A DNA stretch of 64,000 nucleotides, taken from NCBI GenBank assembly GCA_963811305.1, contig CAWEQU010000008.1, positions 324,539-388,538 of the forward strand. Reading direction: 5' to 3'. Below are positions 2,248 through 55,656 of this stretch, piece after piece; position 1 is the first letter of the stretch, and the number at the start of each line of letters is the position of its first letter. The notes under the pieces are model-generated. The model was given only the letters and a program-made list of their open reading frames with translations. It did not search any database and was not told the origin of the DNA. The position numbers were made by a program, and so were the translations under genes. This DNA comes from an uncultured Chloroflexia bacterium. GTDB lineage: Bacteria; Chloroflexota; Chloroflexia; QHBQ01; JADMIH01.

Positions 2248-5200
2248 TTACTGTCCCTCCACCACCCTTATCTCCTCCTCGGTCAGCCCGTACAGCTCGT
2301 ACACCAGCCTGTCTATCGCCTCGTCCGTTACCTTGATCTGCCTTTCGAGCATCACCTTGTCATTGGGGCTTTTCGCGTTGGCCAAGTCCTTGTGCAGCTT
2401 CAACATACGCTCCACCAGGCTCACCATCTGGTCGTGGCGGGCTTTGTCGGCGGGGTCGGAGAAGTTGATGGTGCGGATGGGGCAGTTGTTCTATGTATTG
2501 TCTATTTAGAGCTATATAGCCCCCACGAAATGGGGTGCTTATGGAGCGAAGATAAGTACTCAATAAGCCCGAATTGAGCACACCCAACAGGTACAGATAT
2601 GTAAGGTCCTTGCGATCTGCGAGAGTAATTGCATAACCTCCTCCACCCCCTCCACCACTGCCTACGAAGTAATACATACCTTCCAAGTCAGGGGCAAATG
2701 CGCTGCCAGTGGCAATAGAGGGCACTAATAACTTCTGTAGACCGAACCGAGTGTGATTCTTCTTATACACATATCCATACCAATCTTCTCCAAGTCGCCC
2801 TTTATTCCTTGACCTTAATCTCTCTCTATTCTCTTCCAAATATGCCCATGTCAAGGGATAGTGCTCTCTATAATCCTCTTGACTTATAAGCACGGACTTT
2901 CCATCCTTCATAGCATATGGAAAGATTAAGCGTTTCGTTACCCTATCCAGATAGTAGCGACGTATATTGAGTGAACCCTTTAGGAAAGGCTTGAGATGTT
3001 GGTATTCAAACCAATGTTCCTTGCCTGTAGCTTTTGACATACAGAGAATCCGATCACCCTCCTGGCGCACCGACTCCAAAATAAACACATCATCAGCATC
3101 GGTCTGTAGACCCACAAAAAGATGCGCGACGTCTCCCAGCTTCACAGGCATAGCGTTCAGCCGACCAAACAAGCTGACGTTCTGGCCCATACCAAAGTTC
3201 CATTCCTGCGCGCCTACATTCTCAGCAGGCACAACACTTTTTTCTGCATGACCAGTTAGACGCCAATCATTAAGATTACGTACCATCAGAATGTGGCATG
3301 CATCGTTAGCTCTTCTGGTGAGAAACAATAGGCACGTATAAGTCGTGGCTTCAGTGAACACCTGCTGATCTGTAAAATGCACAATGTCCGATAAGTGCTG
3401 CCCTTGCGATATCAACCCGCGCAAGGGTTCTCCATATTGTGCGTTGAAGAACTTATGCGGCAAGATAAATCCTAACCGTCCTCGATTGTTCAGCAGTTCC
3501 AGTCCCTTCTCGACAAACACAACGTAAATATCATAGTTCCCCTTGCTTGCCGAAACGTATCGCCTTTTATAGTGCTCGACCTCTAAGGGTGCCCACTCCT
3601 TCATGGTTTGGATGCGGATATAAGGCGGATTACCAATCACCGCATCGAATCCACCTGCCTTCATAATCTCCTTGAACTCACTCTGCCAGTCGAAGGCGTT
3701 GATACGGTACTGCTCCTCGCTATCCAGGAAGCTCGACTGCCCGCTCGTGTAGAAGTCCGGCCCTATCAGCGAGTTGCCCGACTTGATATTCTCTCCCAGG
3801 TCGGGCAGCACGCGGTCTGCCGTCGCTACCCCCGCCAGGCCAAGCTGCACCCCAAGCGTCTCCCGCGTCTCCCCTTCCAGCACCTTCAGCAGCAGCGACA
3901 GCTTCGTCACCTCCACCGCCTGCGTGTCAATATCCACCCCGTAGATATTGTTGCGCAGTATCTTCTTCCGCTCCCCGATGCTCAGCCTCCACCCAGGCGC
4001 TCCATCCCCCACATTAGCCACCCGCACCAGCGCAGGGGCGTCCGCCTTCTTCCCCCTCCCGCCAGCCTTCTTCGCATGGCTCTCCGGGTCGTTCGCCGTG
4101 TACCAGCGCAGGTGCCAGTCGAGCAGATAGCTATACGCCCCAATCAGGAACGACCCTGAGCCGCACGCCGGGTCCAATATCCGCAGGCCCGCAGCCTCCT
4201 TCGGCGTCTTCCCCTCAAGCAGCTTCCCAACCGTCTGCTCCACGATGTAATCTACGATGTAGGTAGGCGTATAATAGACCCCGCCCGCCTTACGCACCTC
4301 TGGTTTGTCTTCAATAACTACCTGCCGGATTGCGAATTGCGGATTGTGGATTGTGGATTTTGAGCTACTGCCTTCTGCATTCTGCCTACTGCCTTCTTTG
4401 GAGTCGTCCGTAATCCTGATCACTTTCCCCAGGAACTGCTCGTACACCTGCCCCAGTATCTCGATAGGTATCACGTCGAACTTGTAGGGGCTTGGGTAAT
4501 AAAGGTGTTCGACTATCCTGGCGATCGGCTCGTCCCCAATCTGAAGGTTCAGGGTGAACTCGTCCGGCTGCTCGGCTATCCCCTTCTCAGGCTTGAAATG
4601 GAAGAGGCCGGAGTTGTACCGCTCGTGCGCCCGCGTAAAGAGGTCCACCAGCCGCCTGTACATCCCGCCGCCATACTTCAGCGTCAGCTTAAGCTGGTCT
4701 TCCGGCTCGATTCCCCGGTCCTCGGCGATGCGCAGGAAGATAATGCGGTTGATAGTCATCTGCACCGCGTAATTCAGGTCGCGCTGGGAGAGGTCGGGAT
4801 TGCGCGTGGCAATTTCCCGCGCCAGCACCTCCCGCCACTCCGAGAATCTCCTTCAGAAAGGCCGCGTCAACGGTCTGCGCGCCCGACAGCTTCTTCTCCA
4901 TCAGCTTATCGAGCGAACCCCCGGCGACAGCATCATGGTGGAGCAGCTCCGCGATGTCGTCCCAGCGCTCCACGTACTGCTCGTAAGTGAGATAGAAGCC
5001 TGGGAGGACTGCCACCTTAGCGAGGTCGTTGCGGTCCGGCTTGATGCGGCAGTCGTAGACGGAGAATTGCTGGAAGTCGGTCAGGATGCTGATGGGGAGG
5101 CGTGCGCTCCACCCGTAGGCGCGCACCTGGAAAGCGTGGGCGCGGTTCGTCTCAAGCTCCTCGTAAGGCTTCTTCGCCTCCACGTAGAACTTGCGCTTGC

Positions 5201-6068: not shown

Positions 6069-6130
6069 CTAGAGTACAGAGTACAGAGTGCTACCTCACA
6101 AATATTCCGCACTCCGCACTCCGCACTCCA
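6069..6130. repeat. tandem heptamer arrays (AGAGTAC x2-3, CGCACTC x3)
   Basis: Read directly: agagtacagagtacagagtg and ccgcactccgcactccgcactcc. Confidence 0.8.
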
Positions 6131-6390: not shown

Positions 6391-6513
6391 CTCTACGTCT
6401 CTACGTCTCTACGTCTCTACGTCTCTACGCCTAATACCCATAAATAATCTTGGCGTTCTCCGTAATCTTGGCGTCTTGGCGTTTAATCCGTCTTTCGTCT
6501 TTCGTCTTTCGTC
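6391..6513. repeat. serial tandem arrays (CTCTACGT x4-5, CTTGGCGT-like x3, CGTCTTT x3)
   Basis: Read directly from lines 6361-6520. There is no spacer structure. Confidence 0.85.
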
Positions 6514-6615: not shown

Positions 6616-8750
6616 ATGCTCATCAAACGCCTGGCCGGGGCGCAGCAAGCCTCGGCTACCGACAGCCCAGCAGATAACCTCGCACAGCCGGCTCAATATC
6701 CACTCCCTTCCGGCAAGGGACCCATGCCCACCGAGATCATGCCCGGCACAGGCACAGCGCCCCTGCCTCGCAACACGGTCCTCCAGGGACGCTACGACGT
6801 CGAGCAGGTGCTGGGCGTGGGCGGCATGAGCACCGTCTACAAGGCCCGCGACCTGCGCTTCACCGCGGTTGCCCGCTACTGCGCCATCAAAGAGATGCTC
6901 GACACCGCGCCCGGACCCGCGCACCGGCCAGCTTCGCCTCGCCAACTTCGAGCGCGAGGCCTCCCTGCTCGCCACCCTCTCTCACCCCGGCATACCCAAG
7001 ATTTACGACTTCTTCTCCGCGCAGGGCCGCGTCTACCTGGTGCTGGAGTTTATCGATGGGCAAGACCTGGAAACGCAACTTGCAGGCCAGGGGCGTCCCC
7101 ATGATGGAAGATGAGGTAGTCGAGTACGGCGGTGCAAATCTGCGACGTGCTGGAGTACCTGCACGGCCACCAGCCTCAGCCCATCGTCTTCCGCGACCTC
7201 AAGCCCTCGAACATCATCGTCACGGCGGAAGGTAAGCTCACTCTGATCGACTTCGGTATCGCCAAGGTCTTCCAGTCGGACAAGCGCGGCACCATGATCG
7301 GCACCGAGGGGTACGCCCCGCCCGAGCAGTATCGCGGCCTGGCCGAGCCGCGCGGCGACATCTACGCCCTCGGCGCGACCATGCACCACCTGCTCACCAA
7401 CTCCGACCCGCGCTCCCAGACGCCCGTTCACCTTCCACGAGCGCCCGATACGCAAGTTCAACCCTCGCGTCTCCGAGTACATAGAGTCGGTCATCCTCGC
7501 GCTCGTAGAGTACGACATAGAGCGCCGCTGGCCCACCGCCCCGGCTCTGCGTCAGGCGCTCATGCAGAGCAGCATATTCGACTCCAAGCTAAAGCGCCGC
7601 CAGTCGGACCCCCTCGATGAATTGCCCTCGTTGCTAGATGGCGCTACGGTCCCCAGGATGTCCTCGTCGCACGCTTGAGGAGATTCGGCACCTGTCGACT
7701 TCACAGGATATGCCGCGGCTGCCGAGCGGCCGTCGCCGACCATCCCGGCTCCATTCAGCGTCCTGCGCCGCAGGCGGCGAGGATGGCGCGCAGGTGCTCT
7801 GGACCTTCGCCGCCGACGACGAGATTCGCTCCTCCCCCCTGTGCAACCGTGGGGTGGTCTTCTTCGGCTCGTACGACACCAACTTCTACGCGCTCAACGC
7901 CAAGAGCGGCGATTTCCTGTGGAAAGCTCCCACCAAGGCGGGTATATGCTCCTCCCCCGCTGTAATGCCGGCGACATGGTCGTGGTCGGCTCGGAGGACA
8001 ACTACGTCTACGCGCTTGACGCTCGGCGAGGCACCCAGGAGTGGAGCTTACCGCACCGGCGCGGCCGTCCGCTCGTCCCCTAAGCAGTACAAAGACATGG
8101 TGTTCGTAGGCTCGGACGACCAGAATATCTACGCGCTCCACGCCGATACGGGGCAGATGCTATGGAAGTATCGCACCTGGAACTTCGTGCGCTCCTCCGC
8201 GGCCTTCGCCAAGGGCCTTGTATTCATTGGCTCCAGCGACGGCAACCTGTACGCGCTCGACACGCTGAGTGGCACCCTCAAGTGGAAGCTGCATACCCTG
8301 GGCGCGATCGTCAGCACCCCGGTGGTGGTGGGCAATATCGTCATCGTAGGCTCGATGGACAACTACGTGTATGCCGCGGAATCGAGACCGGCTTCACGTC
8401 CTGGCGCTTCGAGTGCCAGCACTCCGTCTCCTCGTCGCCCGCCGTGCCGGGGGGCGCGTGATGATCGGCTCGGCCGACGGCCACCTGTATGCCCTTGACG
8501 CGCCCACGGGCCGCCATATCTGGAGCTTCGACACCGGCAGCCAGATGACCTCGTCGCCCCGCGTGTCGCTCATCAGCGACGCGTCTATTTCGGCGCGACC
8601 AACAACTACGTCTATTGCCTGGACGCCAGCACGGGCGAGCTGAAGTGGAGGTACAAGACGCGCGGCCCCGTGGTCTCGTCCCCCGCTATAGAAGACGGGA
8701 TAGTGTACGTCGGCTCGCTGGACCGCAAGCTATACGCGTTAGCAATGTAA
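6616..8750 (+). pseudogene. Ser/Thr protein kinase followed by PQQ-like beta-propeller repeats, multiply frame-disrupted
   Basis: Kinase motifs are split over ORFs 6616-7104, 6869-7114 and 7132-7620 (GVGGMSTVYKA, AIKEM, IVFRDLKPSNI, DFGIAK, GTEGYAPPE). Propeller blades alternate between all three frames up to TAA 8748-8750; examples are VFFGSYDTNFYALNAKSGDFLWK, VVGSEDNYVYALDARRGTQEW, IGSADGHLYALDAPTGRHIW and YVGSLDRKLYALAM*. I count at least 8 frame changes. An SD-like GGGAG lies 10 nt before ATG 6616. Treating kinase and propeller as one gene is an inference. Confidence 0.7.
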
Positions 8751-8848
8751 GGAAAAAGGATAAAGGATAAAGGATAAGAATATCCATCGTCACGAAGCAT
8801 AATCCCATACCCAGCATCCTTTATCCTTTTTCCTTTATCCTTTTTCCC
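8751..8848. terminator. long hairpin whose arms are (GGATAAA)n / (TTTATCC)n arrays
   Basis: Left arm is ggaaaaaggataaaggataaaggataag and right arm is atcctttatcctttttcctttatcctttttcc. It starts immediately after the propeller stop and precedes the SD of the 8860 gene. Terminator function is inferred from position only. Confidence 0.4.
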
Positions 8849-13587: not shown

Positions 13588-13592
13588 CGGTT

Positions 13593-15381: not shown

Positions 15382-15435
15382 GATACGGGCACTGGTAAAC
15401 AAATCAAGTTAGCTCGGTAATCAGTTATACTTGCC

Positions 15436-20937: not shown

Positions 20938-21039
20938 CTGTCATTCTGAGCGGAGCGAAGAATCTGAAGATGTTGGGGTGGCTGTGAGCTTGGGAGGACG
21001 TGGAGATTTTCGATTCTTCGCTCCGCTCAGAATGACAGG
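20938..21039. mobile_element. MITE-like palindrome, core form (copy 2)
   Basis: Arms are CTGTCATTCTGAGCGGAGCGAAGAATC and GATTCTTCGCTCCGCTCAGAATGACAGG. The right flank (to about 21100) resembles the flank of copy 4 (28477-28545). Confidence 0.7.
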
Positions 21040-21175
21040 TCGAGGGATGTTGCTCCATGCTACATGTCTCGCCTCCGATTTTGCATCAGCCCTGGATTGT
21101 GGCATAAGGAGGTAGCACTAATTGTGGTAGAATAGCAATTACGAAGTTTGGTCTGTAGTATGGGTGAGAAGCGCG

Positions 21176-24174: not shown

Positions 24175-24278
24175 GACGATGGACGATGGACGATGGACGA
24201 TAGATTTTACCGCAGAGACGCAGAGACGCAGAGATTTATGGAGGATTTACACATCACGCATCACGCATCACGTTTCAC
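24175..24278. repeat. serial heptamer arrays (GACGATG x4, CGCAGAGA x3, CATCACG x3)
   Basis: Read directly. It fills the spacer between two SRPBCC genes. Confidence 0.85.
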
Positions 24279-25101: not shown

Positions 25102-25136
25102 GTCTGGCGCGGGTACGACACGAAACTATAAAGAGT

Positions 25137-25219
25137 GCCATTTCGAACGGAGTGAGGAATTGAGAAATCTATCCACCTGGCAACCTTGGAGATTCCTCAC
25201 TTCGTTCGGAATGACAGGG
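25137..25219. mobile_element. MITE-like palindrome, core form, TCCGAACGAAGTGAGGAAT subfamily (copy 3, left arm degenerate)
   Basis: gccatttcgaacggagtgaggaat ... gattcctcacttcgttcggaatgacaggg. Confidence 0.6.
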
Positions 25220-25250
25220 AGAGATGTGCTTCCTCGTTCTGGGCTTTTAG

Positions 25251-25679
25251 TTACGCAGAGACATCCAGGGGTCGCTTAGCCTTAGCCTTGCCTATCCTCC
25301 CCAGGTGCGTTTCGCTGAACGAGCCCGGGTACTTCAGACCATACCCTACCAGGCGGTCCATGCCGATGTGCGCGAACCAGATCAGCGCCAGCCAAAGCGG
25401 AAGTAAGCTGGTGGTTAGCACCCCTATGAAAACCAAAGCGCCAGGAAGGAGGTAGTTATGGAAGAGGTTGTAAGAGGCTGCCCCCATGCTCGGCCCTGCC
25501 AGGTAGCCCAGGGCAGAGAGGTCGGGTGCGAGCAGGAGGAGGGCGAAGAGCCACCACTCCCCGCCGCTCTTCCCATATAGGAGGGGTGAGAGGGCGAGCA
25601 AAACCCCGCCCTCAACCCTCTGCAACACCCTTGGCCCCAGGATGTTATCGCTCACCCTGGCCTGCACCTGCTTCATCAT
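25251..25679 (-). CDS. DUF4260-family membrane protein
   Basis: ..[47 protein letters not shown] fits my recollection of DUF4260. Confidence 0.6.
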
Positions 25680-26658
25680 CTTCGGAGGCTTCTATATCCC
25701 CTTCCATGAAGCGTGCGCGCTCGGCGGCTGCCGACCTGAGCCTCTCTAGCTCAGCCTCGCTGTCCTCCCCATCATCTGGCGGAGGGCTAGCAGCCACCGA
25801 GGAGGTCTCCACGGGCAAGGTATCCGCTACCGGGGGCGCATTACGGGCCACCGCGCGCTCCCTGGCTGCGCTACCATCCCCATCCTTGAATGCAGATATG
25901 GCGTGCGGTATCAGGCCCAGAAGCTCGATTGGCACCGGGAAGACGATGGTCGAGTTCTTCTCGGCGGCTATCTCCGTCAGCGTCTGCAAATAGCGCAACT
26001 GTATGGCCGCAGGCTCTCCACCGATTACACCTGCCGCGTCGGTAAGCATCTTGGACGCCTCGTACTCACCCGAAGCGTGGATGATCTTGGCGCGCTTCTC
26101 ACGCTCGGCCTCCGCCTGGCGAGCCATCGCCCGCTGCATCGACTGGGGCAGTTCGACATCCTTCACCTCGACGATGCCCACCTTGATGCCCCATGGCTCG
26201 GTCTGCTCATCTATGATCTGCTGGAGCTTCAGGTTGATCTCCTCGCGCTGGGAGAGCAACTCGTCAAGGTTGGACTGCCCCAGCACGCTCCGCAGGGTCG
26301 TCTGCGCTATCTGGTGGGTGGAGCGCACGTAGTCGGTCACCGCGACAACCGCCTTCTCGGGGTCGAACACCCGGAAGAAGAGCACGGCGTTCACGCGTAC
26401 TGTCACGTTGTCACGCGTGATGACCTCCTGGGCGGGCACGTCAAGGGTGACCACGCGCAGGTCCACTTTCACCATGCGGTCCGCTATGGGTATGATCAGA
26501 AATAGGCCCGGCCCACGCGCCCCCACCAGCCTGCCGAGCCGGAAGATCACCCCGCGCTCGTACTCCTGCACCACCTTTATGGCCGCCCCCGCCACGCTGA
26601 ATAGCACCACAACCAGTGGCACCAAAAACGCCAATAAGCTTATAAGACCTTCGCCCAT
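25645..26658 (-). CDS. SPFH/band-7 (stomatin-like, slipin) protein
   Basis: Start is taken at [14 protein letters not shown] (ATG 26658). ..[43 protein letters not shown].. is canonical. The 73 codons upstream in the ORF track read through a repeat array, so I discount them. Confidence 0.85.
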
Positions 26659-26685
26659 GTTATTCTCTCCTTTGTAATTGATGCG

Positions 26686-26878
26686 GAAACGTGATGCGTG
26701 AAAGGTGATCATCAAACGCCAAGACGCCAAGATAACCAAGAACGCCAAGTTTTTATAGGAATCACCGCCCTCTTGATAAAATCTCTGCGACCTCTGCGTC
26801 TCTGCGGTGAATAACCACAAAGAATTCTTGGCGTTCTTGGTTCCCTTTGCGTATTGGCGTTTAATCTCACGTTTCACG
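26686..26878. repeat. nested palindrome of tandem arrays inside the nfeD-stomatin spacer
   Basis: cgtgatgcg .. (gccaag)n .. ctctgcgacctctgcgtctctgcgg .. (cttggcg)n .. cacgtttcacg. Confidence 0.85.
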
Positions 26879-28271
26879 CCTCGTCAGATGCGACTGTCAG
26901 CGTCAGTCCATCGGCCTTCACCACTCGTACTTTTCGCCCTTGCGGTATCGGGCCGTTCGAGCTAATCGCGTTCCATAGCTCGCCTTCTACGAATACCATG
27001 CCGTTGGGTGCGAGGTCGGTGCGCGCCTCAGCGACGCTTCCCACCAGGCTCTCACGTCCTGTTGCCGGACGGTAGCGCCTCGCCTGGAATACCTTGTATA
27101 CGGCGTAGAAGAAGAACGCTCCTAGCGCGCTGGCCGTGCCCGCAACCACATAGGGCGACACGCTCGGCACTCCAGGCAGTCCCTCCGTGTTTATCAGGAG
27201 CAGGCCGCCCAGTATAAGAGAGGCTATCCCCCCTGCGGTTAAAATGCCGTGGCTCGGCGTGAATATGTCCGCTATGAAGAGGACGAAGGAGAAGAGGAGG
27301 AATACCACCCCCGCCGCGTTTATTGGCAGCGTTCCGAGCGCCAGGAACCCTATCAGCAAGCAGAGCGCGCCCACTACTCCGGGGAAGACCGAGCCTGGGT
27401 TGATAAACTCCCAGGTGATGCCGAGCGTTCCGAGGCTGATGAGCACGAATGCCACGCTGGGATTCGTGATAATCAGCAGTATCTCCTCCCCAAAGCTGAG
27501 GGTGAGATTGCGTATCGTCGCGTCCTTCGTGTGGAGGGTCGCCTTTCCGCTCTCCATGTCGACGGTACGCCCGTCTACCTTGGCTAGCAGGTCCTCTACG
27601 TTATTCGCGAGGACATCAACAACCTTCTGATCGAGGGCTGCCTGCGCTCCCAGGTTGGCGCTCTCACGCACGGCCGCTCCGCGAAGTCGGCGTTGCGCCC
27701 GTGAGTCACCGCCAGGTTGCGTATCTTCGAGACAAGCTCGTTTGTCACTTTGCGGCGCATAGCGGCGTCGTCCACCTGTGGGCGTCTCGCTGCTCCCGCC
27801 GTCATCGCCACCCCCCTCGAAAATCACCTCAGCCGACCCTATAGTGGTGTTGGGGGCCATCGCCGCCACGTGCGAGGCATAGACGATGAAGACCCCGGCA
27901 GATGCAGACTGCGCACCCTGGGGCGACACATATGTGATGACAGGCACGCTGCTGGCGAGTATGTTCTTCATCATCTCCTGCATCGAGTCGACCAGCCCGC
28001 CGGGGGTATCAATCTGTATCACTCAGGCGTCCGCACCCGCATCCTCGGCGGTCTTTATCAGCCTGGCGAAGTATTGCGCGCTGATAGGGGTTATCGGCAG
28101 CTTGAACGGGGCGACATAGACAAGACGCGCCCCCTCCCCTTGCCGCACCGTTGTAGCCTGCACGCTGTAAGGCTCCAGCACCCCGCCGAGCACGAGCATA
28201 GCCATCCCCAGGAATAGGGATGATAGATATCCAGTCCGCAGCACTTTCAAAATAGGTGACGCTTTACCCAT
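26874..28271 (-). pseudogene. nfeD: NfeD-family membrane-bound ClpP-class serine protease; in-frame TGA plus a compensated double frame shift
   Basis: Start MGKASPILK (ATG 28271) is preceded by AGGAGG. ..LIKTAEDAGADA-TGA(28023-28025)-VIQIDTPGGLV.. stays in one frame. The segment DDAAMRRKVTNELVSKIRNLAVTHGRNADFAE lies in another frame (ORF 27596-27811) before the reading frame returns. A C-terminal NfeD OB-domain is present. Confidence 0.75.
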
Positions 28272-28390
28272 TGGAAATCCTCCTACCGGATATACGCACG
28301 GGACAGCCTTCGCGTCACAACTATTATACTCTACGTTGGGAAGATGCATCTGGGCAGATGCAAAATCGCAACCTGACTGTAACTCTTCCC

Positions 28391-28476
28391 CTGTCATTCT
28401 GAGCGGAGCGAAGAATTGTAAAACGTTATCCATACGTCCAAGCTTGGAGATTTTTCGCTTCGCTCAGAATGACAGG
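28391..28476. mobile_element. MITE-like palindrome, core form (copy 4)
   Basis: ctgtcattctgagcggagcgaagaat ... tttttcgcttcgctcagaatgacagg. Confidence 0.7.
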
Positions 28477-28550
28477 CGGAAAGTTGCTGCTCTATGCGAC
28501 ATTTACTCTCTTTGACGTTGCATTAGCCCTGGCAAACGCACTTGTAGCCA

Positions 28551-28710: not shown

Positions 28711-29469
28711 ATGGACACGAGTATCTCGCAATCGGATTGGCGCAAAGTGATAGCCGAAATCGTCGGCACCTTTTTCTTCTTCTTTATCGGTATCGGAGGG
28801 GCAATCATAGCCGGGGGGACCGGGGGGGCTGGTGGGGTCCTCTATGTAGCCCTGGCGCATGGCATCGCCCTCGCCCTCGCCATCTCAGCCCTGGGGCACG
28901 TATCGGGCGGCCACTTCAACCCCGCCGTCACGATATCTATGCTGGTGACGCGCAGGATCAGCCCTATGCTGGCAATCCTCTATATCATAGGGCAGATCGT
29001 GGGTGGAGTGCTGGCTTGCCTGGCGCTTATCTCAATCTTCCCCAGCGAGGCATGGCAGGCGGTGAATTTGGGCACGCCGAGCGTCGTAACGGGCGTGAAT
29101 ATGGCGCAGGCCATTCTCCTTGAAGCGATACTCACCTTCTTCCTGGTGGTGGCCGTATTCGGCACTGCCGTTGATACACGCGGCAAGGGGATCGCGGGCT
29201 TCGGCATCGGCCTTACGGTCTTCGCGGACATCCTGGTGGGCGGACCCATCAGTGGCGGGGTGATGAACCCTGCGCGCGCCATCACCCCCGCGATTGTTTC
29301 CGGCAACTGGAACGGCGACCAGATAATCTACTGGGTTGGGCCGATAATCGGCGGCATCATAGCGGGATTGCTGTATACCGCCCTCTTCCTCCGCAAAGAG
29401 GACCTGCCATCCGCCGCCGGACAGGAGCCTCCGACGAGTGAGCCTGGGTTGCTGAATGACGGACGATAG
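28711..29469 (+). CDS. aqpZ: MIP-family aquaporin
   Basis: Two NPA boxes (HFNPAVT, MNPARA) and six hydrophobic segments. The stop TAG is supplied by the first GACGATAG unit of the downstream array. Confidence 0.85.
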   Translation: MDTSISQSDWRKVIAEIVGTFFFFFIGIGGAIIAGGTGGAGGVLYVALAHGIALALAISALGHVSGGHFNPAVTISMLVTRRISPMLAILYIIGQIVGGVLACLALISIFPSEAWQAVNLGTPSVVTGVNMAQAILLEAILTFFLVVAVFGTAVDTRGKGIAGFGIGLTVFADILVGGPISGGVMNPARAITPAIVSGNWNGDQIIYWVGPIIGGIIAGLLYTALFLRKEDLPSAAGQEPPTSEPGLLNDGR

Positions 29470-29590
29470 ACGATAGACGATAGACGATAGACGATAGAGT
29501 ATTACTTCCATAAAATAATCTCTGCGCCCTCTGCGCCTCTGCGGTGAACTTATTTTCTATCGTCCGTCGTCTGTCGTTCGTCGTCTATAG
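29458..29590. repeat. palindromic array element (GACGATA)5 .. (CTCTGCG)3 .. (TATCGTC-like)n
   Basis: Read directly. It overlaps the aquaporin stop codon. Confidence 0.85.
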
Positions 29591-32385: not shown

Positions 32386-32836
32386 GAGCGCATTTCAAAA
32401 CCCGCGACCAGCGCTGGGACGAAAGACGAAGGACGATGAGGGTTACTATGAGGTTTGAAATGCACTTCTAAGAACTCGTAACAAAACGGGCATGGACGAA
32501 TGTATCTGTCGCTCGGTTTTGTTAGGGGTTCTAAGAGCGAACGACAAACCTGGCAAGAAGTTATCTCAAAAATACGAATAGTTAGCCACAGGGCGGTATG
32601 TCACTACTTATGGCGGCCGCTCTCGTGGCCTGCCCTGATATAGAGCACAGAATTAACTGATTCTGGTGATACCGTAGCTTGACAGTTATGTTATCGTTAG
32701 CCTTCAGGAAGTGTTGAATCAGGCGTTCTTAATTCCTAAAGTAGATAGGCCATTCAAGCTACCCAGAGGGCGGCAACTCCGTTACTCAAGGGTTATTTCG
32801 ATTTGTCTGCGTGATGAATACGAAGGAGGCGACTAA

Positions 32837-35325: not shown

Positions 35326-35537
35326 TCAGAGGGTGCCTAAAAAGTGTAAAGCACGACGTAAAGCCGTGAATGTCATTCTGAACGAAGTGAAGGATCTACG
35401 ATTATTACGACAGTACACGCTCATAGATTTCTAGATTCTTCGCTTCGCTCAGAATGACAGGCTAATAAGTACAGTTCTTGGACACTTTCTCAGAATGACA
35501 GGGTAGTTTGTGCTTCTCTTTTTGGACACCCTCTCAG
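35326..35537. mobile_element. MITE-like nested palindrome, long form (copy 5)
   Basis: Outer arms are TCAGAGGGTGCCTAAAAAG and CTTTTTGGACACCCTCTCAGA. Inner arms are GTCATTCTGAACGAAGTGAAGGAT and ATTCTTCGCTTCGCTCAGAATGAC, plus an extra CAGAATGACAGGG fragment. It overlaps the stop of the 35534 gene. Confidence 0.7.
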
Positions 35538-37015: not shown

Positions 37016-37178
37016 TCAGAGGGTGTCCAAAAAGTGTAAGGCAAAGTGTAAAGCAATGAGTGTCATTCTGAACGAAGTGAAGAATTTACGATTTACAGTA
37101 TACCCTTAGAGATTTCTAGATTCTTCGCTTCGCTCAGAATGACAGGTGGAGAGTTACACTTCTTGGACACCCTCGCAG
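37016..37178. mobile_element. MITE-like nested palindrome, long form (copy 6)
   Basis: CAGAGGGTGTCCAAAAAGTGTAA .. GTCATTCTGAACGAAGTGAAGAAT .. ATTCTTCGCTTCGCTCAGAATGAC .. TTACACTTCTTGGACACCCTCGCAG. Confidence 0.75.
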
Positions 37179-37185
37179 ACGCAAG

Positions 37186-40227: not shown

Positions 40228-40343
40228 GGACGATAGACGATGGACGATAGACGATAGACGATAGACGATAGACGATGGACGATGGACGAAAAAACGTGAT
40301 GCGTGATGCGTGACGTTGAACTTTGAACTTTGAACTTTGAACT
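40228..40343. repeat. serial arrays (GACGATA/GACGATG x10, GTGATGC x2-3, TTGAACT x4) in the hutU 5' region
   Basis: Read directly. It begins 19 nt upstream of the hutU ATG. Confidence 0.85.
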
Positions 40344-41399: not shown

Positions 41400-41445
41400 G
41401 TTTTGTATCTTTGGAGGCTAATTGAGAAGCGAGGCCAAGTATAAA

Positions 41446-41530: not shown

Positions 41531-41566
41531 AGAGGGATATTGTCTTTATTGAGCAGATTGTTGAGG

Positions 41567-44390: not shown

Positions 44391-44453
44391 ACGGACGAAA
44401 GACGAAGGACGAAAGACGGATGAATAGCCCTATTCGTCTTTCGTCTTTCGTCT
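44391..44453. repeat. palindromic array (GACGAAA-like)4 .. (TCGTCTT)3
   Basis: gacggacgaaagacgaaggacgaaagacgga-N13-tcgtctttcgtctttcgtc. Confidence 0.85.
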
Positions 44454-44468
44454 AGCAGATAAACGGCT

Positions 44469-47460
44469 ATGAACGTACCTGGCCTCCCAACCGGCACCGT
44501 TACTTTCCTCTTTACGGATATAGAGGGGAGTACTCAGCTTTGGGAGCGCTACCCGGAGCAGGCAGGTGCAGCGCTCGTCCGCCACGACCAGATAATCGAA
44601 GAGATAGTAGAGCGGCACGGGGGTAGCATTGTACGCCCTCGTGGGGAAGGAGACAGCCGCTTTGCCGTCTTCTCGCGGGCTACGGATGCCGTCGCTGCGG
44701 CTGCCGCGATGCAGCAGGCCCTCCATGCCGAGCCGTGGCCTACGCTAAGTTCAAAGTTCAACGTTCCAGGTTCAAAGGGCGACAACTTTGAACCTGGAAC
44801 GTTGAACTTTGAACTTAAGGTGAGGATGGCCCTTCACACCGGAGAGGCCGACCTGCGAGCGGGAGACTACTATGGCATCGCGGTAAACCGCTGTTCTCGA
44901 TTGCGTTCTGCTGCGCACGGCGGTCAGACTCTTCTCTCTCGAACCACCTATGACCTGGTACATGAGAATATGCCCATAGTGACCACAGGCATAGAGTTAG
45001 AGCCTGCGAGACCTGGGTGAGCACCTGCTTAGAGACTTACAACAGCCTCAGCATATTTTCCAGCTTGTCGTCCCCGGCTTGCCTGCCGACTTCCCACCTC
45101 TCAAGACCATAGATGCTCGCCCTAATAACCTGCCGGGGCAGCGCAGTCCGCTGGTGGGGCGCAGGTCCGAGCTTGCGTCCGTACAACGCTTATTGTTGCG
45201 CGATGACGTGGGCCTGCTGACGCTCACCGGGCCGGGTGGTATCGGAAAAACTCGCCTCGGCCTGCAAGTAGCCGCTGAAGTGGTAGATGAGTTCCAGGAC
45301 GGGGTCTTCTTCGTATCGCTGGCCCATATCACCGACCCCACTCTGGTCGCCCCGGCTATCGCGCAAACACTGGGTATGCAGCAGGTGGCGAGCGGAGAGA
45401 TGGCTGATGGTCTGGCCGACTATTTGAGCGACAAGCGGATGCTCCTCTTGCTGGACAATTTCGAGCAGGTAATCGCAGCAGCGCCACTTGTCGCCACGTT
45501 ATTATCAGCAGCCCACCGACTGAAAGTGCTGGTCACCAGCCGGGAGGTGTTGCACGTACATGACGAGCAGGAGTTCGCAGTACCTCCGCTCGGAGTGCCT
45601 GACCTCGAACACCTCTCCTCCGTCGAGGCGCTTTCCCAGTACGAAGGGGTGACGTTGTTCATCCAGCGAGCGCGGCTGGTCAAGCCCGACTTTGAAGTGA
45701 CCAACGAGAACGCCCCTGCCGTAGCGGAGATATGCTACCGCCTGGACGGTCTGCCCCTGGCTATCGAGCTGGCGGCAGCGCGCATAAAGCTCCTCCCTCC
45801 CCAGGCTATATTATCTCGCCTGGCGAGCAAGTTGCAGTTGCTCACCGCAGGAGGGCGAGACCTTCCAGAGAGGCAGCAGACCTTACGGAGCACTATGCAA
45901 TGGAGCTACGACCTGTTGCAGCCGGGCGAGCAAATGCTGTTTCGACGTATGTCGGTCTTCACGGGCGGCGCTACCCTGGAAGCGATAGAAGGGGTGTGCG
46001 CCGGAGGGCCAGGGGTCAGGGATCAGGGATTAGGGGTCAGGGATGATACAACAGAGTTGACTCCTGACCCCTGGCTCCTGACCTCTTTAGACATCGACAT
46101 CCTGGAGGGGGTAGGCTCGTTGGTGGACAAAAGCCTAGTGCGGCAAGAGGCCAGCACAATCGCAAGTGGCACGGTTGGCAGGGAGAGGGAACCCCGGTTT
46201 GGTATGCTGGAGACGATGCGGGAGTACGCGAGTGAGTTACTGGAGAGCGCCGAGCCTGCGGGTGGAGAGGAGATACACCGCCAGCACGCAGAATATTACA
46301 TGACACTGGCCGAGCAGGGCCGGGAGGGGATCCAGGGACCTTTACAGGAAGTGTGGCTGGACCGTCTCGAAGTGGAGCATGATAACGTGCAGGCAGCCAT
46401 TAAGTGGGCTGTTGAGCAGGGCGACGCTGAAACGGCACTGCGTCTTGGCGGAGAGCTGTGGATGTTCCGGGGGTTTCGAGCTTATCTCAACGAAGGTTAT
46501 CAAAGGCTGAGGGAGGCGTTGGGATTGCCAGGGGCTGAGGCGCGTAGCAGGGCACGGGCCGTGGCTCTCAGGGGCGCAGCGTTGATGAGCCGTTACCAAC
46601 GCGACCTGCCCTCCGCCCGTGCCTATATAGAAGAGAGCATATCAATTCTCCGAGAGCTCGGACCTGAGGAGAGAGGTGAGTTGGGCATCGCGCTGGTCAT
46701 GTATAGCAGCGACCTGGCGTACGCAGGAGAGCATGAGGCTGCGAGAGGAGCAGTGGCTGAAGGCATATCCCTCCTTCGCCATGCAGGAAACAAATGGTCC
46801 CTTTCAGATGGCCTTTTCATGGGAGGCTTTGCCGCCACCGTCGCGGGCGACCTGACCGCTGCTAAGGAGGCATACGAAGAAAGTATAACCCTATGCAGAG
46901 AAGTTGGGAATACGTGGATATTGTCTCATGCGTTGAACAGCCTGGGAGACCTATCACGCATGATGGGAGACTATGCAAGAGCAAGGGAAGTGTACGAGGA
47001 GAGCTTGAGTTTATTCCGGCGGTTAGACGTCAGGATTGATATTCCTGCCTCATTGCACAACCTCGGCCACGTAGCCCTGGCTCAGGGTGAAGTGGAAGAA
47101 GCGAAGGGCCTTTTCATTGAGGCCCTACACCTCCACACCAGCTACAGGAACAGGTCCGGCATCGCAGAAAGTCTGGCCGGGTTGGCAGGTGTAGCCGGGG
47201 CGGAGAAGCACCCCGAGAGGGCTGCGCGGCTCTTCGGGGCGTCAGCGTCAGCAGCCCCCCAAGAACGGCCAGGTCCGCAGGATTGGGCCGCCGAGCAGGC
47301 AGATTACGAGCGCATCCTGGCAAGCACGCGAGCACAACTGGACGAAGCAACATGGGAGACGGCATGGCAAGAGGGACGCGCTATGAAGATGGAGCAGGCC
47401 ATCGAGTATGCGGTAAGGGAAACCGGCCCTGATCACGAGACGATAGACGATAAACGATAG
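44469..47460 (+). CDS. class III adenylate/guanylate cyclase - AAA/STAND ATPase - TPR protein, one frame break
   Basis: Cyclase motifs are GTVTFLFTDIEGSTQLWE, VRMALHTGEA and GIAVNRCSRLRSAAHGGQTLLS. A shift near 45000 leads to LRDLGEHLLRDLQQPQHIFQLV..FPPLKT. P-loop is LTGPGGIGKTRL and Walker B is LLLLDNFEQV. The C-terminal half is TPR-like. Confidence 0.8.
44747..44816 (+). repeat. perfect 31-bp-arm palindrome of GTTCAAA-type units translated inside the cyclase domain
   Basis: aagttcaaagttcaacgttccaggttcaaag-ggcgacaa-ctttgaacctggaacgttgaactttgaactt. It is read as SKFNVPGSKGDNFEPGTLNFEL. Confidence 0.9.
46009..46084 (+). repeat. partly palindromic (GGGTCAG/GGATCAG) array translated inside the STAND gene
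   Basis: ccaggggtcagggatcagggattaggggtcaggga..ctcctgacccctggctcctgacc, read as GPGVRDQGLGVRDDTTELTPDPWLLT. Confidence 0.8.
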
Positions 47461-47537
47461 AGTGATGCGTGATGCGTGAGAGTATTGATTCTTCTGCCTT
47501 CTATCGTCTATCGTCTATCGTCTATCGTCTATCGTCC
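47439..47537. repeat. palindromic array (GACGATA)n .. GTGATGC x2 .. (CTATCGT)5 between convergent genes
   Basis: Read directly. It supplies the TAG stop of both flanking genes (47458-47460 on the plus strand, 47529-47531 on the minus strand). Confidence 0.9.
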
Positions 47538-48131: not shown

Positions 48132-48139
48132 TCCGGTAT

Positions 48140-48219
48140 GAAACGTGAAGCGTGATGCGTGAGAGTAGTGCGTAATTCGTACTTCCTAAAGAACCTCTGC
48201 GCACTCTGTGTCTCTGCGG
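48140..48219. repeat. arrays GTGA(A/T)GC x3 and CTCTGCG-like x3
   Basis: Read directly. Confidence 0.75.
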
Positions 48220-48235
48220 TGAATATAGAAAAGCG

Positions 48236-49285: not shown

Positions 49286-49357
49286 ACGGACGACGGACGA
49301 TAGATGATGCGTGAAATGTGAGAATATTGCGTAGTGCGTAACTGTGGACTTTGGACT
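49286..49357. repeat. short mixed arrays (GGACGAC, GATGCGTGA, GTGCGTA, GGACTTT)
   Basis: Read directly. Confidence 0.6.
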
Positions 49358-53028: not shown

Positions 53029-53044
53029 ATATTTATCACGCATC

Positions 53045-54609: not shown

Positions 54610-54712
54610 CGATGGACGATGGACGATGGACGATGGACGATGGACGATGGACGATGGACGATGGACGATGAAACGTGATGCGTGATGGTGAACAATGGAC
54701 GATGGACAGATG
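54610..54712. repeat. (GATGGAC)9 + GTGATGC x2 + GATGGAC-like array abutting the GT39 start
   Basis: Read directly. Confidence 0.9.
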
Positions 54713-54741
54713 GTGCTGTGAAATGGGTTTGTTAGTGGCTC

Positions 54742-55518: not shown

Positions 55519-55569
55519 ATAGCACCCTCCCGGTTGACGCTCCTGCATCCCTCTGATATAGTGCGATAG

Positions 55570-55656
55570 TCCAAAGTCCAAAGTTCAAGGTTCAAAGTTC
55601 AAGGTTCAAGGTTCAAGGTTCAAAGTTACGAAATAATCTCACGTTTCACGTTTCAC
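55570..55656. repeat. (GTTCAA(A/G)) x8 array followed by CACGTTT x2
   Basis: Read directly. Confidence 0.9.

What the first reader, a model, noticed from the sequence alone, without database searches (positions are those of the whole stretch)
26686..26878. Nested palindromes assembled from 7-8-nt tandem arrays occupy many gene boundaries
At 14 or more loci the intergenic DNA is built from short tandem arrays drawn from a small vocabulary. The loci are 6069-6130, 6391-6513, 8751-8848, 24175-24278, 26686-26878, 29458-29590, 32416-32440, 40228-40343, 44391-44453, 47439-47537, 48140-48219, 49286-49357, 54610-54712 and 55570-55656. The units are GACGATA/GACGATG, GTGATGC, CTCTGCG, GTTCAA(A/G), CTTGGCG(T), CTCTACGT, GACGAAA and GGATAAA. 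Arrays are strung in series and often followed by their reverse-complement arrays. For example, 26686-26878 reads CGTGATGCG..(GCCAAG)n..(CTCTGCG)3..(CTTGGCG)n..CACGTTTCACG. A locus can therefore fold into a long imperfect hairpin whose arms are themselves microsatellites. I do not recognise this architecture as REP/BIME, ERIC, MITE or CRISPR. Its function is unknown; candidates are terminator, insulator or protein-binding array.
Basis: seen in the sequence. Interest (0 to 1): 0.75.

Follow-up and report, generated by a model that had tools for sequence, protein, structure and literature searches.

The report
Heptamer repeat arrays between Chloroflexia genes
The spacers between many genes of this Chloroflexia bacterium are filled with fast-evolving tandem arrays of 7-base units, often paired into hairpins; these are real, but they belong to a repeat class already described in cyanobacteria, Xanthomonas and Chloroflexus, whose function is still unknown.

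Summary
The window holds about 41 tandem arrays, almost all of period 7, at 19 loci. There are 15 exact arrays of at least 3 copies, against 0 in shuffles. The focal spacer folds into one hairpin of about 185 nt (z = -9.9).

The window comes from a Chloroflexia MAG. The focal element lies between nfeD and a slipin (SPFH) gene. Six related genomes keep the outer (CGTGAWR)n/(YWTCACG)n arms at this spacer. Copy numbers (3 to 17) and inner modules differ between them.

The arrays are not REP/BIME, MITE or CRISPR. They match the known STRR / heptamer-SSR class in unit length, dispersal, polymorphism and inverted pairs. They also obey the orientation rule published for Xanthomonas and Nostoc: G-rich strand after stop codons, C-rich strand before start codons. 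Here inverted pairs are 81:6 G-rich arm first.

Only 8 of the 19 loci are hairpins. Three others give almost structure-free leaders. Four loci sit in frame inside genes, including mnmG.

My best reading is hypermutable microsatellites filtered by selection at gene boundaries. The focal hairpin is a co-transcribed spacer that folds away. It is a new member of a known kind.

The parts
26874..28022 (-). nfeD gene, upstream of the focal spacer. Its stop codon (26874-26876) is the TGA inside a CGTGAAA unit.
   Evidence: Pfam NfeD_membrane, NfeD and NfeD1b_N. Stop position read. The orthologues L002, L003, L004 and L121 also stop inside a B unit.
25645..26658 (-). SPFH/Band 7 (slipin) gene, downstream of the focal spacer. 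ATG at 26658-26656, Shine-Dalgarno GGAGAG at 26665-26670.
   Evidence: Pfam Band_7, E = 4.6e-39. The SD and start context are conserved in L002 and L003.
26866..26879 (-). 5' outer arm of the hairpin in the mRNA: B units (CGTGAAA, CGTGAG), G-rich, overlapping the nfeD stop codon.
   Evidence: Present in all six array-bearing orthologous spacers.
26827..26865 (-). Second arm pair, 5' side in the mRNA: four octamer units (ACGCCAAG type, reverse complement of CTTGGCGT).
   Evidence: Inverted repeat I14, 39 nt, 87% complementary to 26711-26749. This arm is absent in L002, L003 and U8985, which carry only the other arm.
26776..26811 (+). Central module (CTCTGCGN)x3 with conserved flanks AATCT...GGTGAA. 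It forms the top of the hairpin.
   Evidence: Dispersed family D17: 26776, 29513 and 48188 at 86-100% identity. An inverted copy lies at 24211-24234. This module is present at the focal spacer only in the window lineage.
26711..26749 (-). Second arm pair, 3' side in the mRNA: (CTTGGCGT)x4. The variant CTTGGTT unit is shared with L002 and U8985.
26679..26709 (-). 3' outer arm in the mRNA: reverse-complement B units (TCACCTT, TCACGCA, TCACGTT), C-rich. It ends about 10 nt before the SD.
   Evidence: Copy number across relatives is 3, 5, 8, 17, 3 and 4.
4326..4397 (.). (CGGATTG)x5 + (CTGCCTT)x4, in frame inside an MmeI/Eco57I-type methylase ORF (2360-4828, - strand).
   Evidence: It is 80% complementary over 69 nt to 61847-61915 (I2).
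6069..6130 (.). (AGAGTAC)x2.7 and (TCCGCAC)x3.4.
   Evidence: TCCGCAC is also present at the homologous place in L002.
6391..6513 (.). (CTCTACGT)x5, (CTTGGCGT)x3, (CGTCTTT)x3.6.
   Evidence: RNA fold z = -3.5.
8749..8847 (.). Palindrome (AAGGATA)x4 ... (ATCCTTT)x4.6, ending 13 nt before the start codon at 8860.
   Evidence: z = -7.9.
24175..24278 (.). (GACGATG)x4, (CGCAGAGA)x3, (CATCACG)x3, between two - strand genes. No net hairpin.
   Evidence: z = -0.3. Orthologous loci in L002 and U8985 carry different copy numbers and modules.
29458..29590 (.). Palindrome (GACGATA)x5 ... (CTCTGCGN)x3 ... (TCTATCG/TCGTC)x4. It overlaps the stop codon of the MIP/aquaporin gene.
   Evidence: z = -6.3.
32416..32440 (.). 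Short (GACGAAA/G)x2.7 array.
40228..40343 (.). (GACGATR)x9, (CGTGATG)x2.7, (TTGAACT)x4, between the GNAT and urocanase genes (- strand). On the gene strand this is a C-rich, structure-poor stretch ending 20 nt before the urocanase ATG.
   Evidence: Sense-strand MFE is -6.7 kcal/mol per 121 nt. Absent at the orthologous site in L001.
44391..44453 (.). Palindrome (GACGAAR)x3.6 ... (TTCGTCT)x3, running from 5 nt after a stop codon to 16 nt before the next start.
   Evidence: z = -7.9.
44746..44817 (.). Perfect 32-nt-arm palindrome of (AAGTTCA)n / (TGAACTT)n, inside ORF call 44469-45020.
   Evidence: I19, 100% complementary. z = -13.3.
46010..46083 (.). (CAGGGRT)x5 ... (TGACCCC)x3.7 inverted pair, in frame between the NB-ARC and TPR domains of ORF 45079-47460.
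   Evidence: z = -4.5.
47438..47537 (.). Palindrome (GACGATA)x3.4, (GTGATGC)x2.6 ... (TCTATCG)x5.3 between convergent genes. It overlaps both stop codons.
   Evidence: z = -6.5.
48139..48223 (.). Degenerate (CGTGAWG)x3.4 followed by the (CTCTGCGN)x3 + GGTGAA module, between divergent genes.
49286..49357 (.). (ACGGACG)x2, B-like units, (TGCGTAR)x2, (TGGACTT)x2.
   Evidence: U8985 has about 15 copies at this site.
54610..54713 (.). (GACGATG)x8.7, B x2, (GACGATG)x2. On the - gene strand this is a C-rich stretch ending 9 nt before the PMT-family gene start.
   Evidence: Sense-strand MFE is -4.8 kcal/mol per 111 nt. L119 and U8985 carry other units at this site.
55568..55656 (+). (AGTTCAA/G)x8 plus (TCACGTT)x2.6. 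It lies between a conserved promoter-like site (55534-55562) and the UDP-glucose dehydrogenase start (55674), so it is an inferred 5' UTR.
   Evidence: Orthologues: L119 has D x4 + rcB x5; U8985 has five different arrays.
61840..61915 (+). (AGAAGGC)x5.3 + (AAATCCA)x4.6, in frame in mnmG. It encodes EEGRRQKAEGRRQ..IQNPKSKIQN.
62399..62473 (+). (CGGACGA)x4.9 + (GACGATG)x3.9, in frame in mnmG. It encodes RRTTDDGRRTTDG..DDGRWTIDD.

Best explanation
What it is. These are STRR-type heptamer (plus a few octamer) microsatellite arrays. They form a dispersed, hypermutable class of simple-sequence repeats that fills non-essential space at gene boundaries in a Chloroflexia bacterium.

Shown:
- Arrays persist at a locus, while copy number, unit identity and inner modules turn over between genomes that are 85-90% identical.
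- Whole modules recur at unrelated loci.
- The two arms of a pair share idiosyncratic unit variants, so the arms arose by inverted duplication.
- Arrays also sit in frame inside conserved genes.
- Orientation depends on position: the G-rich strand lies at or over the upstream stop codon, and the C-rich strand lies in front of the next ribosome-binding site.

Inferred:
- Arrays grow and shrink by slipped-strand mispairing.
- They are homogenised or replaced by recombination or template switching between arrays.
- Selection mainly decides where and in which orientation they are tolerated.

The focal locus. The element at 26679-26879 is a spacer inside the nfeD-slipin gene pair and is presumably co-transcribed. 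It folds into one hairpin of about 185 nt. The base of the hairpin joins the nfeD stop codon to a point about 10 nt upstream of the slipin Shine-Dalgarno sequence. The insert is therefore 'folded away'. It most likely has only modest effects on processing, stability or translational coupling of the message. It is not a terminator.

My confidence that this belongs to the STRR / heptamer-SSR class is about 0.9. My confidence in the mostly-neutral, folded-away mechanism is about 0.5.
For: Period-7 specificity: 15 arrays against 0 in shuffles.

The same kind of arrays dominates in 113 genome loci, 23 viral-contig loci and 120 metagenome loci from many phyla.

Orthologous nfeD-slipin spacers in L002, L003, U8985, L004 and L121 keep the outer B/rcB arms. 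Copy numbers are 3 to 17 on one arm against 2 to 4 on the other, and inner modules are gained or lost. A related lineage, L120, has a 96-nt spacer without arrays and no period-7 array in 21 kb.

Other loci change units entirely between genomes that are 85-90% identical.

Module copies at unrelated loci: D17, D3 and I2. The CTTGGTT variant is shared by both E arms and by L002.

In-frame arrays occur in mnmG, a methylase and an NB-ARC protein. A 10-aa insert occurs in a relative's urocanase.

Focal hairpin z = -9.9, with no U-tract.

Polarity of inverted pairs is 81 G-rich-first against 6. Unpaired arrays: 31:12 G-rich in sense within 0-30 nt after stop codons; 6:42 within 40 nt before start codons; 36:31 in the middle of spacers. 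The same rule was published for other heptamers.

STRR hairpins between co-transcribed genes are known in cyanobacteria.
Against: The outer B/rcB arms at the nfeD-slipin junction are retained down to 70% slipin identity, although arrays elsewhere turn over quickly. This hints at a selected role.

The strong position-dependent orientation is itself a sign of selection. It could reflect a positive function, such as unstructured leaders. Sense-strand MFE is -4.8 to -6.7 kcal/mol, against -29.8 +/- 8.2 for array-free upstream regions.

A Nostoc preprint reports changed reporter expression when upstream heptamer repeats are deleted.

Slippage alone does not explain why period 7 is favoured, nor why the same units recur in distant phyla.

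No transcript or population data were available. Co-transcription, folding in vivo and the mutation process are all inferred.
Confidence: 0.6

Rival explanations
1. The arrays are selected cis-regulatory elements of messenger RNAs. C-rich, G-poor arrays just upstream of the ribosome-binding site give unstructured leaders that act as ribosome standby or S1-type landing sites. Paired arrays give 5' or intercistronic stem-loops that stabilise the downstream message or couple translation. Copy-number changes act as tuning knobs or phase variation.
For: Orientation is strongly position-dependent.

Three array leaders are almost structure-free in the sense strand and more structured in the antisense strand.

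The arrays at 55568-55656 lie between a conserved promoter-like site and the start codon.

The B/rcB arms are conserved at nfeD-slipin.

Heptamer deletion changes reporter output in Nostoc. Heptanucleotide SSRs control hmw expression in Haemophilus (papers listed; I did not read them in detail).
Against: Units and copy numbers at orthologous sites differ wildly between close relatives, with no conserved dosage.

Arms expand unilaterally, 3 against 17 copies.

Arrays also occur inside genes and between convergent genes.

The orientation rule can equally be purifying selection against harmful orientations, such as decoy start codons or SD-like purine runs near real starts, and missing stop codons at gene ends.
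Confidence: 0.25
2. Paired arrays are bidirectional transcription terminators or insulators that work without a U-tract. The pyrimidine-rich 3' arm gives a weak RNA:DNA hybrid.
For: The polarity 'purine-rich arm first' holds on both strands, as it does for the A-tract/T-tract of bidirectional terminators.

Some pairs sit between convergent genes: 7 of 41, against 12% of all spacers.

The G-type arrays (AAGGATA/TATCCTT) flank a GC-rich stem after corA in L119, like a classical terminator.
Against: The focal hairpin and most pairs lie between co-directional, closely spaced genes, including the nfeD-slipin pair that is normally one operon.

The consensus scan found no terminator-like site at the array loci.

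Pairs also occur in inferred 5' UTRs and inside ORFs.

The excess in convergent spacers is not significant.
Confidence: 0.08
3. The composite loci are non-autonomous mobile elements (MITE- or REPIN-like), possibly moved by the Y1 (IS200-like, RAYT-like) transposase encoded at 57272-57724.
For: Multi-array modules recur at unrelated loci with conserved linkers (D17, D3, I2).

A Y1_Tnp gene flanked by 61-nt perfect inverted repeats is present and syntenic in relatives.
Against: There is no fixed element length, no defined ends and no target-site duplication.

Orthologous loci differ by gradual copy-number and unit changes, not by clean presence or absence. The true MITE-like and REPIN-like families in the same window do show clean presence/absence.

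The motifs flanking the Y1 gene occur only around that gene.
Confidence: 0.05
4. The arrays are binding platforms for a sequence-specific DNA- or RNA-binding protein that reads 7-nt units. Candidates include a cold-shock-type OB-fold protein, a nucleoid protein, or an unknown repeat-writing enzyme.
For: The unit vocabulary is small and recurrent, and is partly shared with Pyrinomonadaceae and other phyla.

Three units span 21 bp, which is two helical turns.

This has been speculated in the literature for cyanobacteria and Beggiatoaceae.
Against: Many different units coexist and replace each other at one site.

There is no global strand preference.

No candidate protein was identified.
Confidence: 0.07
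5. The arrays are an assembly artefact.
For: Simple repeats can be mis-assembled, and copy numbers of long arrays in short-read MAGs may be inaccurate.
Against: Arrays sit at orthologous positions in independent assemblies from four sources.

Arrays keep the reading frame inside conserved genes.
Confidence: 0.01

Closest known systems
Cyanobacterial STRR (short tandemly repeated repetitive) heptamers, including the hairpin between hupS and hupL
   Same: 7-bp units in tandem, dispersed at many intergenic sites. Able to form hairpins between co-transcribed genes. Function unknown, with transcript stability or translational coupling suggested (PMC2670836). Also found inside a functional gene, RNase P RNA (Vioque 1997, title cited).
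   Different: Different phylum and different units. Here many unit types are strung in a preferred order and nested. Insertion into protein-coding genes is documented here.
G-rich heptamer SSRs GGGAATC (Xanthomonas) and GGGGAYT (Nostoc), Rehm et al. 2015
   Same: Hundreds of intergenic heptamer arrays, mostly between aligned ORFs. Paired sites lie in convergent orientation. [quoted passage not shown] Length and sequence vary between close species. The same rule is found here.
   Different: Those units have G-tracts, and the rule was attributed to G-quadruplexes. The units here (GACGATR, CGTGAWR and others) have no G-tracts, so G4 cannot be the reason.
TAACTGA direct repeats of Beggiatoaceae, cyanobacteria and Bacteroidetes (MacGregor 2015)
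   Same: Intergenic heptamer arrays close to start codons. Patchy distribution across distant phyla. Mixed assemblages of several heptamers in some genomes.
   Different: That family has one dominant unit with stop codons in all frames, in forward orientation directly upstream of starts, and almost no inverted pairs.
Chloroflexus aurantiacus (GATAGRA)n satellite family (Subirana and Messeguer 2019)
   Same: Same bacterial class. A dispersed heptamer-derived family. The unit is one base away from a rotation of GACGATA (GATAGAC).
   Different: Only catalogued as a satellite family. Architecture, position, orthologue turnover and coding insertions were not described.
REP / BIME / REPIN elements with RAYT transposases
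   Same: Intergenic mosaic of a small motif vocabulary in alternating orientation. Hairpin-forming and often intercistronic.
   Different: The unit is a palindrome of 20-40 nt with a conserved head, not a tandem array of 7-nt units. REPIN-like elements and a RAYT-like gene exist separately in this window.
Phase-variable heptanucleotide SSRs upstream of hmw adhesin genes in Haemophilus influenzae
   Same: A 7-nt tandem array between promoter and start codon, where copy number changes expression (papers listed).
   Different: Those are a few dedicated contingency loci, not a genome-wide class. Variation within a population was not tested here.

Membership tests
STRR / intergenic heptamer SSR arrays | Head-to-tail tandem copies of a 7-nt unit | tested here: met
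   TRF finds about 41 arrays, nearly all of period 7. Exact runs: 15 against 0 expected.
STRR / intergenic heptamer SSR arrays | Dispersed at many loci of the genome, mostly non-coding, with a limited set of units | tested here: met
   19 loci in 64 kb. 155 of 210 arrays in 463 kb of Chloroflexia loci lie outside ORF calls.
STRR / intergenic heptamer SSR arrays | Copy-number and sequence polymorphism at orthologous loci of close relatives | tested here: met
STRR / intergenic heptamer SSR arrays | Inverted ('convergent') pairs able to form hairpins, including between co-transcribed genes | tested here: met
   8 hairpin loci in the window. 89 pairs in all loci, 81:6 G-rich arm first with 2 ties.
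STRR / intergenic heptamer SSR arrays | G-rich strand on the sense strand just after stop codons and on the antisense strand just before ORFs (Rehm 2015) | tested here: met
   0-30 nt after stop codons: 31:12. 0-40 nt before start codons: 6:42. Gene calls are my own crude ORF model. Manual check of the window loci agrees.
STRR / intergenic heptamer SSR arrays | Arrays are transcribed | not testable with these tools
   No transcript data. Inferred from the position inside an operon-like gene pair and downstream of a promoter-like site.
REP / BIME / REPIN | Unit is an imperfect palindrome of 20-40 nt with a conserved head (for example GTAG), related to the flanks of a RAYT gene | tested here: not met
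   The array units are 7-8 nt and not palindromic. The flank motif of the Y1 gene occurs only at that gene.
MITE | Defined length, terminal inverted repeats, clean presence/absence with target-site duplication | tested here: not met
   Orthologous array loci differ gradually and never show an empty site with sharp ends. The separate 'TGTCATTCTGAGCGAAGCGAAGAAT' family does.
CRISPR | Repeats of 23-50 nt separated by unique spacers of similar length | tested here: not met
   Units of 7-8 nt abut each other without spacers.
Intrinsic terminator | GC-rich stem-loop followed directly by a U-tract at the end of a transcription unit | tested here: not met
   No terminator-like site at the focal or the 54500-55800 loci. 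The focal hairpin is followed by UUUCCGCAUCAAUUACAAAGGAGAG and then the next gene.
Any Rfam RNA family | Match at the gathering score | tested here: not met
   Only a c-di-GMP-I riboswitch and a tRNA were found in the window.
Phase-variable contingency SSR | Copy number varies within a population and switches expression of the adjacent gene | not tested
   Only between-genome differences were seen. An exact-flank search of metagenomes found nothing.

The most novel reading that the evidence does not exclude
Heptamer arrays in at least eight phyla may obey one geometry: the G-rich strand runs 5'->3' away from the nearest gene boundary, and inverted pairs are almost always G-rich arm first. The rule holds here for units that cannot form G-quadruplexes.

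Together with three other observations, this would point to a shared process that is still unidentified. That process could be a polar repeat-generating or fold-back mechanism, or a universal translation-boundary constraint. It would go beyond ordinary slippage or G4 biology. The three observations are:
- in-register replacement of one unit by another at fixed sites;
- recurrence of the same units in distant phyla;
- in-frame colonisation of conserved genes, which produces hypervariable protein loops.
Probability: 0.2. Interest if true: 0.65.

Novelty: new member of a known kind. Interest (0 to 1): 0.4.

Why it matters
Heptamer repeats have been known since 1990. They are over-represented in many bacteria, yet neither the reason for the 7-nt period nor any function is established.

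This lineage offers a dense, many-unit example with close relatives available for comparison. It shows three things:
1. Arrays persist at a site while their sequence turns over.
2. The published strand and position rule holds for units without G-tracts. That removes the G-quadruplex explanation and points to constraints at stop codons and ribosome-binding sites.
3. Arrays can enter essential genes in frame and create hypervariable loops.

There are practical consequences. The arrays break short-read assemblies, create spurious ORFs and shift predicted start and stop codons. Annotators of Chloroflexota MAGs should mask them.

Tried and rejected
1. Retrieval of the source contig failed. The window's urocanase and the 100%-identical MnmG (P0241) gave no record, and the cluster look-up gave no name.

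2. An exact-flank search of metagenomes for more nfeD-slipin spacers found 0 hits.

3. An AlphaFold model of the window's MnmG was meant to test whether the array-encoded inserts are surface loops. The alignment of 15 sequences was too shallow and mean pLDDT was 51. The model is unusable and no fold search was run.

4. Rfam has no family on the arrays.

5. A global orientation test of the A and B arrays against flanking genes showed no clear bias. The bias appeared only after splitting by distance to the stop or start codon.

6. Rho avoidance as the reason for 'G-rich arm first' was rejected as a general cause. Unpaired C-rich arrays in the sense strand are as common as G-rich ones (81 against 80).

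7. A link between the Y1 transposase and the arrays was rejected. The motifs flanking that gene are not dispersed.

8. A promoter inside the focal spacer (TTATCR-N16-TATAAA, read by eye) was not picked up by the consensus scan. I left it as an untested idea.

9. Enrichment of pairs in convergent spacers and depletion in divergent spacers was not significant.
Full report
OBSERVATION

Tandem Repeats Finder lists about 41 non-redundant arrays of period 7. A few have period 8 or 9. They lie at 19 loci and cover 1211 nt, or 1.9% of the window.

The excess is specific to period 7. Exact runs of at least 3 copies number 15 at period 7 and 2 at period 8. Twenty dinucleotide-preserving shuffles gave 0.0 for both, and periods 4-6 and 9-12 have none.

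Three listed loci are weak.

The nested palindrome at the focal locus is real. On the gene strand the spacer folds into one hairpin of about 185 nt. MFE is -95.6 kcal/mol against -54.3 +/- 4.2 for shuffles, z = -9.9.

Only 8 of the 19 loci are hairpins, with z from -3.5 to -13.3. The rest are serial direct arrays without excess structure.

CONTEXT

The window comes from a Chloroflexia bacterium. Its urocanase, slipin and MnmG proteins match Chloroflexia MAGs best. The closest DNA found is a JGI metagenome contig (L002 and L119, about 90% identical) and the soil MAG SMAG_U8985 (83-89% identical).

The focal element lies between nfeD (26874-28022, - strand) and an SPFH/Band 7 slipin gene (25645-26658, - strand). 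From general knowledge, this pair is normally one operon.

Read in the mRNA direction, the spacer has this order:
1. B units (CGTGAAA, CGTGAG) that contain the nfeD stop codon.
2. Four ACGCCAAG-type octamers.
3. A central (CGCAGAG)x3 module.
4. Four CTTGGCGT octamers.
5. Reverse-complement B units.
6. About 10 nt further on, GGAGAG and then the ATG.

No U-tract follows the hairpin, and the consensus scan sees no terminator there.

ORTHOLOGUES OF THE FOCAL SPACER

I fetched the same junction from six other sources. L002, L003, U8985 (L069), L004/L005 and L121 (only 70% slipin identity) all have G-rich B units over the nfeD stop codon. All of them also have reverse-complement B units in front of the slipin ribosome-binding site.

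Everything else varies:
- The 3' arm has about 3, 5, 8, 17, 3 and 4 copies across these genomes, against 2-4 copies on the 5' arm.
- L003, L004 and U8985 carry extra GACGAWR arrays.
- L121 has an unrelated palindromic element in the middle.
- Only the window has the second arm pair and the CTCTGCG module that make the palindrome nested.

The two octamer arms of the window and the single arm of L002 and U8985 share the odd unit CTTGGTT. The second arm therefore arose by inverted duplication of an existing array.

L120 belongs to a related lineage with 74% slipin identity. It has a 96-nt spacer without arrays and no period-7 array in 21 kb. The repeat habit is therefore lineage-dependent.

OTHER LOCI

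Orthologous comparisons show the same behaviour: the site persists and the content turns over.
- At 55568-55656 the window has (AGTTCAA)x8 plus rcB. L119 has x4 plus rcB x5. U8985 has five different arrays. Only the gene-proximal rcB is shared.
- At 24175 and 54610 the three genomes carry different units and copy numbers, and some form palindromes.
- At 40228 a relative has no heptamers at all.
- Modules recur at unrelated loci with conserved linkers: the (CTCTGCGN)x3-GGTGAA module at four places, an A-then-B composite at 79% identity over 103 nt, and a two-array module at 80% over 69 nt.

ARRAYS INSIDE GENES

The mnmG ORF is 736 aa, against about 630 aa normally. It contains two array pairs in frame. 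They lie between blocks that align to E. coli MnmG.

Fifteen MnmG proteins of this clade show hypervariable peptides at exactly these two sites. Examples are RRTTDDG, IQNPKSK, EGRRQKA and GRWTMDD. Distant MnmG proteins lack the inserts.

Between the window and U8985 the proteins are 93% identical with no gaps. Even so, one array is replaced in register by another unit.

In-frame arrays also sit in an MmeI-type methylase and in an NB-ARC/TPR protein. A relative's urocanase has a 10-aa insert encoded by (CGGACGA)x4.4.

DISTRIBUTION

About half are Chloroflexota. Pyrinomonadaceae, Fibrobacter, Saprospiraceae, Bacteroidales, Lentisphaeria, Omnitrophota, Gemmatimonadota and others also appear.

In all these loci the tandem arrays are almost only of period 7, with several units per genome. 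Pyrinomonadaceae carry the same (GACGATR)n...(YATCGTC)n palindromes ending a few bases before SD and ATG.

ORIENTATION RULE

Among 89 inverted array pairs, the 5' arm is the G-rich one in 81 and the C-rich one in 6, with 2 ties.
- First data set: A family 27:2, other families 17:3.
- Second data set, ascertained independently: B family 26:0, other families 11:1.

An X...rcX pair reads the same on both strands. This polarity therefore does not depend on the direction of transcription.

Unpaired arrays between co-directional genes show no overall bias (87:81) but a strong dependence on position:
- 0-30 nt after a stop codon: 31 G-rich in sense against 12.
- Overlapping the stop codon: 28:0. This count is partly an ascertainment effect.
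- 0-20 nt before a start codon: 3:28.
- 21-40 nt before a start codon: 3:14.
- Middle of spacers: 36:31.

The rule holds for the A family, the B family and the other units. The gene calls are my own crude model. Manual inspection of the window loci agrees with it.

Pairs usually begin within a few bases of the upstream stop codon.

Three array stretches just upstream of start codons are nearly structure-free in the sense strand. MFE is -4.8 to -6.7 kcal/mol per roughly 110 nt. Array-free upstream regions give -29.8 +/- 8.2. Two of the three are more structured in the antisense strand.

COMPARISON WITH WHAT IS KNOWN

The arrays are not REP/BIME, MITE, CRISPR or any Rfam family.

They match the heptamer-SSR / STRR class on every testable defining feature.
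- STRR hairpins of 7-bp repeats between co-transcribed genes (hupS-hupL) are described in cyanobacteria. Their function is unknown, and transcript stability or translational coupling has been suggested.
- Rehm et al. 2015 describe hundreds of GGGAATC or GGGGAYT arrays in Xanthomonas and Nostoc. Those arrays form convergently oriented pairs and vary between close species. [quoted passage not shown] The authors linked the rule to G-quadruplexes.
- A dispersed (GATAGRA)n family was catalogued in Chloroflexus aurantiacus.
- TAACTGA arrays occur in Beggiatoaceae, cyanobacteria and Bacteroidetes.

What I did not find described in the searched literature:
- the ordered many-unit mosaics and nesting in this lineage;
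- the orthologue-by-orthologue turnover;
- the in-frame colonisation of mnmG and other genes;
- the fact that the orientation rule holds for units without G-tracts.

MECHANISM

Shown: hypermutable copy number, unit replacement at fixed sites, module sharing between loci, inverted duplication of arms, tolerance inside genes when in frame, and position-dependent orientation.

Inferred: slipped-strand mispairing together with recombination or template switching generates the arrays. Selection at stop codons and ribosome-binding sites filters them.

The focal palindrome is, on this reading, a co-transcribed spacer. Its hairpin brings the nfeD stop codon and the slipin ribosome-binding region together, so the 200-nt insert is largely neutral. 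At most it modulates processing, stability or coupling.

The main rival is that the arrays are selected leader or intercistronic elements. Support for this comes from the unstructured G-poor leaders, the conserved B arms, and reporter effects in Nostoc.

The terminator, mobile-element, protein-platform and artefact readings are less likely, for the reasons given under the rivals.

Two points remain unexplained: why the period is 7, and why the same units recur across phyla.

VERDICT

This is a real, well-described feature that belongs to a known but poorly understood repeat class. It is a new member of a known kind, of moderate interest.

Noticed in passing
window 61037-63247 (mnmG), inserts at 61840-61915 and 62399-62473; also 4326-4397, 46010-46083; L001:10476-10506: Heptamer arrays sit in frame inside conserved genes: mnmG, an MmeI-type methylase, an NB-ARC/TPR protein, and a relative's urocanase. 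They encode 7-residue-periodic peptides. The two mnmG sites are hypervariable across 15 relatives and empty in distant MnmG proteins.
   Followed up: yes
window + L001-L264 (all loci): Inverted heptamer pairs are G-rich arm first in 81 of 87 informative cases across many phyla. Unpaired arrays are G-rich in sense after stop codons and C-rich in sense before start codons. The same rule is published for G4-type heptamers, but it holds here for units without G-tracts.
   Followed up: yes
window 57272-57724 (+), flanks 57149-57209 and 57777-57837: A 150-aa Y1 (IS200-like) transposase gene flanked by a perfect 61-nt inverted repeat containing GTAG plus small GC hairpins. It looks like a RAYT. It is syntenic in L119 and U8985, and its flank motif occurs nowhere else in the sequences held.
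   Followed up: partly
window about 52935-53030: A REPIN-like pair of GTAGGGGCGGTTCGTGAACCGCCC hairpins in inverted orientation. It is part of a 140-147-nt insertion absent from the orthologous site in L119 and U8985. A similar GTAGGGGCGACC... pair lies upstream of the urocanase gene in L001.
   Followed up: partly
window 5643-5813, 20938-21095, 25135-25223, 28375-28532, 35326-35537, 37016-37183, 41445-41544: A separate MITE-like palindromic family (core TGTCATTCTGAGCGAAGCGAAGAAT and its complement, about 100-210 nt) at seven loci. Presence/absence against L002 is clean, and a copy sits inside the nfeD-slipin spacer of L121.
   Followed up: partly
window 59495-59582 (+): A c-di-GMP-I riboswitch (83 bits) upstream of a CAP-domain gene (59673/59781-60851).
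   Followed up: no
window 38500-38560 (- strand, 3' end of the urocanase gene): The urocanase C-terminus (…[19 protein letters not shown]) differs from the short …VPMLEV end of all relatives aligned. This suggests an indel or frameshift at the gene end.
   Followed up: no
window about 11200-15400: A stretch of lower G+C (47-50% against 55-60% elsewhere) with few convincing ORFs. It may be foreign DNA.
   Followed up: no
window 22895-23515 and 198-387: 126-nt (42-aa TPR_12-type) coding repeats in an NB-ARC/TPR gene, and glycine-rich coding repeats of period 39/51 at the window start. These are ordinary protein repeats, unrelated to the heptamers.
   Followed up: no
L002:11106-11309 and similar: Public gene calls include small 'hypothetical' ORFs that consist largely of heptamer arrays. 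These are probably spurious predictions caused by stop-free array orientations.
   Followed up: no
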